Source of the DNA: Escherichia coli
GTDB lineage: Bacteria > Pseudomonadota > Gammaproteobacteria > Enterobacterales > Enterobacteriaceae
Direction: 5' to 3' (one strand)
DNA length: 64,000 nt
NCBI RefSeq assembly: GCF_050320075.1
Contig: NZ_CP190018.1
The position numbers were made by a program, and so were the translations under genes. Positions within the stretch are counted from its first letter, which is position 1. Every line of letters starts with the position of its first letter. The notes below the pieces were generated by a model. The model had not been told where the DNA came from. It did no database searches and was given only the letters and a program-made list of their open reading frames with translations. Positions 11,455-11,620 of this stretch are shown one piece after another.

Positions 11455-11620
11455 CCGTGGCAGCAGACCCGGACTGAAAAACTGCTCAGGACATTATCGG
11501 CAGGGTACGCACTGCTAGTCTGTAAACTGAACCGACTGGGGCGCAGTATGTGGCATCTTGTCGTGCTGTTGGAGGAGCTGTGCAAACGTGGTATTAACTT
11601 TCGTGCTCTGGCCCAATCTA
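11455..11620 (+). pseudogene. pinH: serine recombinase (Pin/Hin invertase family) fragment, pinH-like remnant
   Basis: Open frame TRTEKLLRTLSAGYALLVCKLNRLGRSMWHLVVLLEELCKRGINFRALAQSI aligns with the resolvase core LVVWKLDRLGRS...GINFRSLTDSID; no start or C-terminal domain. Confidence 0.45.

What the first reader, a model, noticed from the sequence alone, without database searches (positions are those of the whole stretch)
11455..11620. Serine-recombinase (Pin/Hin-type) remnant upstream of the autotransporter gene
An open frame encodes the conserved resolvase core LVCKLNRLGRS...GINFRALAQSI but lacks a start and the C-terminal DNA-binding domain. It is a decayed invertase, possibly a relic of a former invertible segment or older mobile element at the ileY locus.
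Basis: partly seen in the sequence, partly recalled or inferred. Interest (0 to 1): 0.2.

Follow-up and report, generated by a model that had tools for sequence, protein, structure and literature searches.

The report
Dead invertase gene fragment (pinH)
This is a short, non-functional leftover of a phage-type DNA invertase gene, the same pseudogene already annotated as pinH in E. coli K-12, fused to a scrap of an IS3 insertion sequence; it is ordinary genomic debris.

Summary
Window 11465-11622 (+) is derived from a Pin/Gin-type serine DNA invertase gene. With the frame repaired it matches e14 PinE residues 42-94 (41/53 identical, E 1e-25), Pfam Resolvase (E 5.7e-10) and Gin (PDB 3uj3, E 9e-10).

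It is the orthologue of the K-12 pseudogene pinH (b2648), at the same position between ypjCB and ypjA. NCBI's genome annotation pipeline (PGAP) already marks 11476-11622 as an incomplete recombinase in a 99.9%-identical genome.

It lacks the N-terminal 41 codons with the catalytic serine, the E-helix and the DNA-binding domain. It carries D->N in KLDRLGRS, and in this strain a 1-nt deletion in an A-run (11477-11481) shifts the frame.

New detail:
- The 5' breakpoint is fused directly to an unannotated IS3 relic: the left terminal inverted repeat (IRL) at 11370-11387 and an internal OrfB piece at 11388-11464.
- The 3' end (11623-11645) abuts a ~360-nt autotransporter upstream module that has a paralogue at the ymgJ locus.

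Seven divergent strains share all breakpoints. Variable sites fall 8:8:8 by codon position, and different strains carry different stops, so the fragment is decaying neutrally. No crossover sites or flanking inverted repeats survive. About 55% of complete E. coli genomes carry it.

Verdict: already known, low interest.

The parts
11370..11387 (+). IS3 left terminal inverted repeat (IRL) relic, TGATATTACCCAGCAATA
   Evidence: It matches IS3 IRL nt 1-18 (TGATCTTACCCAGCAATA in L004) at 17/18 here and 18/18 in the K-12 allele. It is joined directly to internal IS3 sequence, across a short imperfectly similar stretch (TTACCCAGCAAT in IRL, TTACCCGGTCAA internally).
11388..11464 (+). Internal fragment of the IS3 transposase gene (N-terminal HTH region of OrfB), same orientation as the invertase fragment
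   Evidence: blastn gives 84% identity over 92 nt to IS3 (window 11375-11465 = L004 2472-2563, E 6e-23). The whole-collection search gives E 7e-9 to annotated IS3 transposases. Translation [21 protein letters not shown] compares with IS3 [21 protein letters not shown]. Pfam HTH_21 is weak (E 0.0034, below cut-off).
11465..11622 (+). Pin-type serine DNA invertase remnant (pinH orthologue), equivalent to PinE codons 42-94 of 184
   Evidence: Supported. PGAP annotates 11476-11622 as 'recombinase family protein, incomplete, missing N-terminus and C-terminus' in the 99.9%-identical strain YZLc1-3. It aligns to K-12 pinH b2648.
11477..11481 (+). A5 run where pinE, the intact prophage invertase gene and four of the seven pinH alleles (K-12, O157:H7, 32F4 with A6; others AACAAA) have 6 nt; the 1-nt deletion shifts the frame in this lineage
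   Evidence: Alignments. Without repair the Pin frame reads RPGLKNCSGHYRQGTHC*.
11623..11645 (+). 23 nt of uncertain origin between the last secure Pin codon and the autotransporter upstream module; the 3' breakpoint lies somewhere in here
   Evidence: An eye alignment to pinE nt 271-305 did not beat shuffled controls.
11646..12029 (+). Right-hand neighbour, not part of the relic: the ypjA upstream module, with a paralogue at the ymgJ-ycgI locus near minE
   Evidence: It is 86-87% identical over window 11642/11646-11999 to the ymgJ locus in most E. coli genomes. The left edge of that paralogy lies within about 20 nt of the end of Pin homology.

Best explanation
Window 11465-11622 is an inert internal fragment, about 29% of the gene (codons 42-94 of 184), of a phage tail-fibre-type serine DNA invertase gene of the Pin/Gin/Hin/Cin group. 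It is the orthologue of the annotated K-12 pseudogene pinH (b2648). It does nothing as a recombinase.

Why it cannot work:
- It has no start codon.
- It lacks the N-terminal 41 residues that carry the catalytic serine.
- It lacks the E-helix and the C-terminal helix-turn-helix DNA-binding domain.
- The conserved KLDRLGRS motif reads KLNRLGRS.
- In this strain a 1-nt deletion breaks the frame.

How it most likely arose (inferred from the anatomy):
1. An invertase-bearing mobile element, most plausibly a P2-like or e14-like prophage, once lay in the variable interval between ileY and ssrA.
2. An IS3 copy inserted about 100 nt downstream of the terminator-like hairpin that follows ypjCB.
3. One deletion removed IS3 nt ~19-542.
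4. A second deletion ran from IS3 nt ~621 to pin nt 123. It joined the two at a short imperfectly similar stretch (CAAGCC in IS3, AAAGGCC in pin) and removed the IS3 right end, everything in between and the 5' end of pin.
5. On the 3' side the gene is broken within 11623-11645 and joined to the ~360-nt upstream module of the ypjA autotransporter gene.

All of this happened once, before the sampled E. coli lineages diverged. The scar has drifted neutrally since.
For: Shown by tool results:
- Homology to Pin and Gin, with defined limits.
- Orthology with K-12 pinH and an identical gene order, ileY-ypjC/B-pinH-ypjA.
- PGAP pseudogene annotation in an identical sequence.
- IS3 IRL and an OrfB fragment abutting pin nt 124.
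- Seven divergent strains, down to 88% identity in the remnant, share all three breakpoints.
- Variable sites fall 8:8:8 over codon positions 1, 2 and 3.
- 17% of remnant columns vary, like the non-coding left flank (18%).
- Different alleles carry different lesions: a frameshift here, an in-frame stop EEL*ERG in 19KM1831, and QQ*GDE in the river isolate just past the secure Pin homology.
- No pix/gix/hix-type crossover site in the 64 kb, and no convincing inverted repeats around it.
- Phage matches to the 936-nt intergenic region cover only 11464-11604 among the listed hits, and all of those are annotated DNA invertases of P2-like, Mu-like and related phages.

Circumstantial support for a prophage origin:
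- In strain MB19 the ileY-ssrA interval holds a P2-like prophage remnant.
- P2-like phages that carry an invertase have it on the same strand as T-U-D-ogr. That matches the relative orientation of pinH.
Against: - The order of events is inferred from breakpoints only. No genome with an intermediate state (a full IS3 or a longer pin at this site) was found. The one full IS3 seen at the locus, in strain AW1.7, is an independent insertion next to ileY.
- The source element cannot be identified. The best intact relative is only 86% identical over 139 nt.
- The exact 3' breakpoint is uncertain by about 23 nt.
- Expression was not examined, so 'inert' rests on sequence and on the pattern of variation among strains.
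Confidence: 0.93

Rival explanations
1. The remnant DNA has been co-opted in cis. For example, it could bind a nucleoid protein such as Fis or H-NS, or supply a promoter element that modulates the downstream ypjA adhesin gene. Invertase genes are known to carry a Fis-dependent enhancer in their 5' coding region (established knowledge, not tested here).
For: - The fragment lies about 400-560 nt upstream of the ypjA start.
- It is retained with ypjA in about 55% of complete E. coli genomes.
- It begins at pin nt 124, roughly where the enhancers of related invertase genes lie (from memory).
Against: - The remnant is as variable among strains as the surrounding non-coding DNA, with 17% variable columns. 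The truly conserved stretch is further downstream at 11845-12029, with 1.6%.
- The promoter scan found no + strand sigma-70-like site in 11000-12100.
- Co-retention with ypjA is explained by linkage inside one island.
Confidence: 0.04
2. A short protein is still made from the fragment, for example the 47-aa ORF 11548-11691 starting MWHLVVLLEEL, and it acts as a truncated regulatory or dominant-negative recombinase subunit.
For: - An ATG-initiated ORF exists at 11548-11691.
- In five of the seven alleles compared the Pin frame runs without a stop from the junction to the same stop at 11689-11691.
Against: - Substitutions are spread evenly over codon positions (8:8:8).
- Two alleles carry a stop inside this ORF: the river isolate (QQ*GDE) and 19KM1831 (EEL*ERG).
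- The product would have no catalytic serine, no dimerisation helix and no DNA-binding domain.
- K-12 and PGAP both annotate the region as a pseudogene.
Confidence: 0.02
3. The similarity is to a transposon or plasmid resolvase (Tn3 or gamma-delta type) rather than a phage invertase, or it is a chance match.
For: Weak matches to gamma-delta and Tn3 resolvase chains (E 0.03-0.3).
Against: - Matches to invertases are many orders of magnitude better: Gin at 9e-10 and PinE at 77% identity with E 1e-25.
- There is 83-86% nucleotide identity to pin-type genes.
- All listed phage hits that carry an annotation are annotated DNA invertases.
- Chance is excluded by these E-values.
Confidence: 0.01

Closest known systems
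pinH (b2648), annotated pseudogene of E. coli K-12 MG1655, between ypjB and ypjA
   Same: It is the same locus with the same orientation relative to ileY and ypjA. The remnant is 95.6% identical. The breakpoints on both sides are identical, and so is the adjoining IS3 relic.
   Different: This strain has a 1-nt deletion in the A-run (A5 versus A6), so the first Pin codons are out of frame. There are also a few point differences (e.g. CKRG versus CERG, FPQQ versus FAQQ). The K-12 feature (240 nt) is drawn from the IS3/pin junction region to the first stop, so it also includes non-invertase sequence.
PinE, the DNA invertase of cryptic prophage e14 (b1158), and close relatives in P2-like and Mu-like prophages
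   Same: 77% amino-acid identity over residues 42-94 and 83% nucleotide identity over nt 124-270. An intact prophage invertase (WP_021563296) is 86% identical.
   Different: PinE is a complete 184-aa enzyme with an adjacent invertible tail-fibre segment bounded by inverted crossover sites. Here only 53 codons remain. D->N has changed the KLDRLGRS motif, and there are no crossover sites and no tail-fibre genes.
Gin invertase of phage Mu (PDB 3uj3, 4m6f)
   Same: Sequence match over Gin residues 46-95, E 9e-10. The matched part belongs to the catalytic-domain core.
   Different: The catalytic serine region, the E-helix and the DNA-binding domain are absent.
IS3 insertion sequence (IS3 family)
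   Same: The left terminal inverted repeat and 77-92 nt of the transposase gene are present, at 84% identity.
   Different: There is no right end and no intact orfA or orfB, and most of the element is deleted. It is a relic that is not annotated in the records examined.

Membership tests
Serine recombinase, DNA-invertase group (Pin/Gin/Hin/Cin) | Resolvase-type N-terminal catalytic domain (Pfam PF00239), complete | tested here: not met
   Only profile positions 49-102 of 145 are matched. The homology is significant, but it is a fragment.
Serine recombinase, DNA-invertase group (Pin/Gin/Hin/Cin) | Catalytic serine near the N-terminus (YVRVST motif; S9/S10) | tested here: not met
   Homology starts at PinE residue 42. 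The DNA upstream of 11465 is IS3-derived.
Serine recombinase, DNA-invertase group (Pin/Gin/Hin/Cin) | Conserved active-site motif KLDRLGRS (the Asp and two Arg) | tested here: inconclusive
   The motif is present as KLNRLGRS. Both Arg residues are kept, and Asp is replaced by Asn in all seven alleles.
Serine recombinase, DNA-invertase group (Pin/Gin/Hin/Cin) | E-helix and C-terminal helix-turn-helix DNA-binding domain | tested here: not met
   Secure homology ends at PinE residue 94. Nothing downstream aligns to residues 95-184 beyond chance.
Serine recombinase, DNA-invertase group (Pin/Gin/Hin/Cin) | Intact ORF with a start codon | tested here: not met
There is no start.
Serine recombinase, DNA-invertase group (Pin/Gin/Hin/Cin) | Pair of inverted ~26-bp crossover sites flanking an invertible segment next to the gene | tested here: not met
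   The e14 sites were recovered as a control. No match to the site consensus with up to 3 mismatches was found in 64 kb. The core AAACCNNGGTTT was found no more often than in shuffles. No convincing inverted repeats lie in 8700-12200.
Serine recombinase, DNA-invertase group (Pin/Gin/Hin/Cin) | Fis-dependent recombinational enhancer in the 5' part of the gene | not tested
   This feature is known for hin, gin and cin from the literature (memory). Its position in pin was not checked here, and the degenerate Fis consensus gives no decisive computational test.
Orthologue of K-12 pinH (b2648) | Same chromosomal position (ileY - ypjC/B - pinH - ypjA) and collinear flanks | tested here: met
   Window 4644-16787 is collinear with K-12 at 94% identity.
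Orthologue of K-12 pinH (b2648) | Same sequence and same breakpoints | tested here: met
   Alignments; 95.6% identity in the remnant.
IS3 element | Terminal inverted repeats, both ends | tested here: not met
   IRL is present (17/18). blastn of window 11001-12100 against a complete IS3 found only IRL and one internal piece, and no right end.
IS3 element | Intact orfA/orfB transposase with programmed frameshift | tested here: not met
   Only about 77-92 nt of orfB remain.

The most novel reading that the evidence does not exclude
The IS3/pin scar may be more than debris. It could be the surviving joint of the event that placed the ypjA autotransporter cassette, with its ~360-nt conserved leader, into a decaying prophage at the ileY-ssrA hotspot. 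Part of the invertase gene's Fis-binding enhancer might then still influence ypjA expression. The evidence does not exclude this. The left edge of the ypjA/ymgJ-locus paralogy lies within about 20 nt of the end of Pin homology.
Probability: 0.04. Interest if true: 0.3.

Novelty: already known. Interest (0 to 1): 0.07.

Why it matters
It matters little. The fragment is an annotated pseudogene (pinH in K-12; 'recombinase family protein, incomplete' in RefSeq genomes). Its main use is as a stable historical marker of the ileY-ypjCB-pinH-ypjA island, which about 55% of complete E. coli genomes carry.

The one modest addition is the anatomy of the scar. An unannotated IS3 relic explains the 5' truncation, and the 3' end abuts the duplicated autotransporter leader. 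That could help reconstruct how this adhesin island was assembled.

Tried and rejected
- **Crossover sites and inverted repeats.** I searched for surviving invertible-segment sites using the e14 crossover sites as a template, and looked for inverted repeats around the locus. Nothing was found.
- **3' extension of the homology.** I tried to extend Pin homology from 11611 to about 11645. The eye alignment looked plausible but did not beat shuffles, so it was dropped to 'uncertain'.
- **Phage-derived flanks.** A phage-collection search of the whole 936-nt intergenic region matched only the invertase core among the listed hits, so no tail-fibre or other phage remnants are recognisable.
- **The junction in other species.** The exact-pattern scan of 100,044 species genomes returned only two contigs. 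Both are 94% identical to E. coli and filed under unrelated taxa, so they are likely contamination. No other Escherichia species carried the pattern, but the scan is exact-match only.
- **A full IS3 as an ancestral intermediate.** The full IS3 in strain AW1.7 lies next to ileY and is an independent insertion.
- **Literature.** The only paper holding both 'pinH' and 'invertase' refers to a different gene, the CP-933H prophage invertase of O157:H7. A sigma-S genomic SELEX peak between ypjA and ileY appears to use older K-12 coordinates and to fall between ypjC and ileY rather than on pinH (the coordinate conversion is my inference).
- **RNA explanations for the intergenic region.** Rfam gave only a sub-threshold chance hit, and the fold z-score was +0.96.

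Full report
**What is in the sequence.** Reading frame 1 from 11401 has a stop at 11452-11454. It then reads PWQQTRTEKLLRTLSAGYALLVCKLNRLGRSMWHLVVLLEELCKRGINFRALAQSIFPQQWGDECCKSKTICDLKVIV*.

The similarity to serine recombinases is well beyond chance:
- Pfam Resolvase PF00239 gives E 1.5e-7, 32 bits against a cut-off of 23.3, on profile positions 53-102 of 145.
- The solved Gin invertase structures 3uj3 and 4m6f match at E 9e-10 over residues 46-95. Gamma-delta and Tn3 resolvases reach only E 0.03-0.3.
- At the DNA level, window 11465-11610 is 83% identical to e14 pinE nt 124-270. It is 86% identical to an intact prophage invertase gene, WP_021563296 in L005.
- After repair of a 1-nt deletion, the translation matches PinE residues 42-94 at 41/53 identity, E 1e-25. 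Pfam improves to E 5.7e-10.

**It is the known pseudogene pinH.** The window is collinear with E. coli K-12 MG1655 from 4644 to 16787 at 94% identity. K-12 annotates the corresponding stretch as pseudogene pinH, b2648, between ypjB and ypjA and downstream of ileY. The two sequences align base for base. In RefSeq genomes with identical sequence, PGAP annotates the equivalent of window 11476-11622 as 'recombinase family protein; incomplete; missing N-terminus and C-terminus'. The window is 99.9% identical to strain YZLc1-3. About 55% of complete E. coli genomes (3010 of 5426) carry at least 80% of 11400-11700.

**Anatomy and limits.** The invertase-derived DNA begins at 11465. Immediately to its left is an IS3 relic that is not annotated in the records examined.
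- Window 11370-11387 (TGATATTACCCAGCAATA) is the IS3 left terminal inverted repeat. It matches 17/18 here and 18/18 in the K-12 allele.
- Window 11388-11464 is an internal piece of the IS3 transposase gene, 84% identical over 92 nt counting the imperfectly similar overlap with IRL.
- The internal piece translates as [21 protein letters not shown], against [21 protein letters not shown] in IS3 OrfB.

Two deletion joints are therefore visible. One is inside IS3, where IRL nt ~18 is joined to nt ~543 at a short imperfectly similar stretch (TTACCCAGCAAT in IRL, TTACCCGGTCAA internally). The other joins IS3 nt ~621 to pin nt 124, again at a short imperfectly similar stretch (CAAGCC in IS3, AAAGGCC in pin).

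In this strain the A-run at 11477-11481 has five A where pinE, the intact prophage invertase gene and the K-12, O157:H7 and 32F4 pinH alleles have six. The first Pin codons (RPGLK) are therefore in a different frame from the rest.

On the 3' side, secure homology ends at about 11622 (PinE residue 94). An apparent extension to about 11645 did not beat shuffled controls. From 11642-11646 onward the sequence belongs to a ~360-nt module that is 86-87% identical to the ymgJ-ycgI locus near minE in most E. coli genomes. The 3' breakpoint therefore lies within 11623-11645, directly against the upstream module of the ypjA autotransporter gene.

**Why it is non-functional.**
- The fragment covers 53 of 184 codons.
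- It lacks the N-terminal region that holds the catalytic serine (YVRVST in PinE).
- It lacks everything from residue 95 on. From established knowledge of serine recombinases, that part comprises the E-helix and the C-terminal helix-turn-helix domain.
- The conserved KLDRLGRS motif is KLNRLGRS in all alleles.
- There is no start codon.

The pattern of variation among strains agrees. In an alignment of seven divergent strains, 17% of remnant columns vary. That is like the IS3 relic (18%) and the non-coding left flank (18.5%). The 24 variable sites in 11465-11610 fall 8:8:8 over the three codon positions. Alleles carry different lesions: a frameshift here, an in-frame stop (EEL*ERG) in 19KM1831, and a stop (QQ*GDE) in the river isolate just past the secure Pin homology. 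All seven share the same three breakpoints. The scar therefore formed once in a common ancestor and has drifted since.

**Invertible segment and origin.** Using e14 as a positive control, the crossover sites were recovered as a 21-nt inverted repeat flanking the P segment. The window contains no match to the site consensus with up to three mismatches. The AAACCNNGGTTT core is no more frequent than in shuffles. No convincing inverted repeats lie in 8700-12200. The phage collection matches only 11464-11604 of the 936-nt intergenic region among the listed hits, and every annotated hit there is a DNA invertase of P2-like, Mu-like or related phages. An invertible segment, if it ever existed here, is gone.

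A prophage origin is plausible but circumstantial:
- The ileY-ssrA interval is a variable hotspot.
- It holds CP4-57 in K-12 and a P4-like satellite in this strain.
- In strain MB19 it holds a P2-like prophage remnant in place of the ypjCB-pinH-ypjA island.
- P2-like phages that carry an invertase have it on the same strand as T-U-D-ogr. That matches the relative orientation of pinH.

No intermediate state was found. The full IS3 in strain AW1.7 is an independent insertion next to ileY. The exact-pattern scan of species-representative genomes returned only two E. coli-like contigs filed under unrelated taxa.

**Rivals.**
- Chance similarity, or a resolvase rather than an invertase, is excluded by the scores above.
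- A functional mini-protein is unlikely. Substitutions are even across codon positions, two alleles carry stops inside the candidate ORF, and every part needed for activity is missing.
- A cis-regulatory role for ypjA cannot be excluded without experiments, but it is not suggested by conservation. The remnant varies like neutral DNA, whereas the strongly conserved stretch lies further downstream at 11845-12029. No + strand promoter-like site was found.

**Verdict.** The feature is the already-annotated pinH pseudogene, an ordinary relic. The only new detail is the fused IS3 relic that explains the 5' truncation, and the position of the 3' joint against the duplicated autotransporter leader. 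Interest is low.

Noticed in passing
window 11845-12029: The 185 nt just upstream of the ypjA start are almost invariant in seven divergent E. coli strains: 3 variable columns (1.6%) against 17-18% in the neighbouring relics. PGAP calls a 39-aa hypothetical protein here (WP_001120794.1, 11845-11964). All 5 nucleotide differences between this ORF and its paralogue at the ymgJ locus change the amino acid, so the conservation does not look protein-level. There is no Rfam hit and the RNA fold z-score is +0.96. The constraint is unexplained.
   Followed up: partly
window 11646-12002: The ypjA upstream module has a paralogue (86-87% identical) in the ymgJ-ycgI region next to minE in most E. coli genomes. 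It has none upstream of K-12 ycgV. The ymgJ reading frame is cut short here (VSRRYSSETIM*), whereas K-12-type YmgJ is 61 aa.
   Followed up: partly
window about 17270-28460: A P4-like satellite prophage is integrated at ssrA, according to the annotation of the 99.9%-identical strain YZLc1-3. It encodes a primase-helicase, an Icd-like protein, an ogr/Delta-like protein, a polarity suppression protein and an integrase, and it carries a 908-aa 'ATP-binding protein' cargo gene next to the integrase. K-12 has CP4-57 at this site instead.
   Followed up: no
window 9640-11094: ypjCB is interrupted in this strain by an in-frame stop at 9985-9987, giving two ORFs of 115 and 365 aa. It is a single 484-aa gene in strain AR_0067 and is split differently (ypjC, ypjB) in K-12.
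   Followed up: no
L015 (strain MB19) 9674-14874: In this genome the ileY-ssrA interval has no ypjCB-pinH-ypjA island. It holds a degraded P2-like prophage instead, with a replication endonuclease fragment, the tape measure, U, D and ogr.
   Followed up: partly
L011 and L012: Contigs filed under Terrisporobacter mayombei (539 nt, coverage 0.74) and a Planococcaceae metagenome-assembled genome are 89-94% identical to this E. coli locus. They are most likely E. coli contamination of those assemblies.
   Followed up: yes
window 8808-8883: ARAGORN calls this gene tRNA-Met (anticodon CAT). RefSeq annotates it as tRNA-Ile (ileY, CAU read as Ile after lysidine modification).
   Followed up: yes
window 11239-11266: A terminator-like GC-rich hairpin (AAGGGGCTACGTTTTCATGTAACCCCTT) lies about 145 nt after the ypjCB stop. 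The scan scored it on the minus strand, and it is conserved in all seven strains. The IS3 left end lies about 100 nt downstream of it.
   Followed up: no
window 11436-11717 (- strand); L006 3951-4112: A 93-aa antisense ORF runs through the IS3/pin relic. In one river isolate PGAP annotates a 53-aa hypothetical protein (WP_000075277.1) antisense to the relic. Both are probably spurious calls on pseudogene DNA.
   Followed up: no
literature: The name PinH is also used for a different, intact 22-kDa invertase of prophage CP-933H in E. coli O157:H7 (PMC3936929). It should not be confused with the K-12 pinH fragment.
   Followed up: yes
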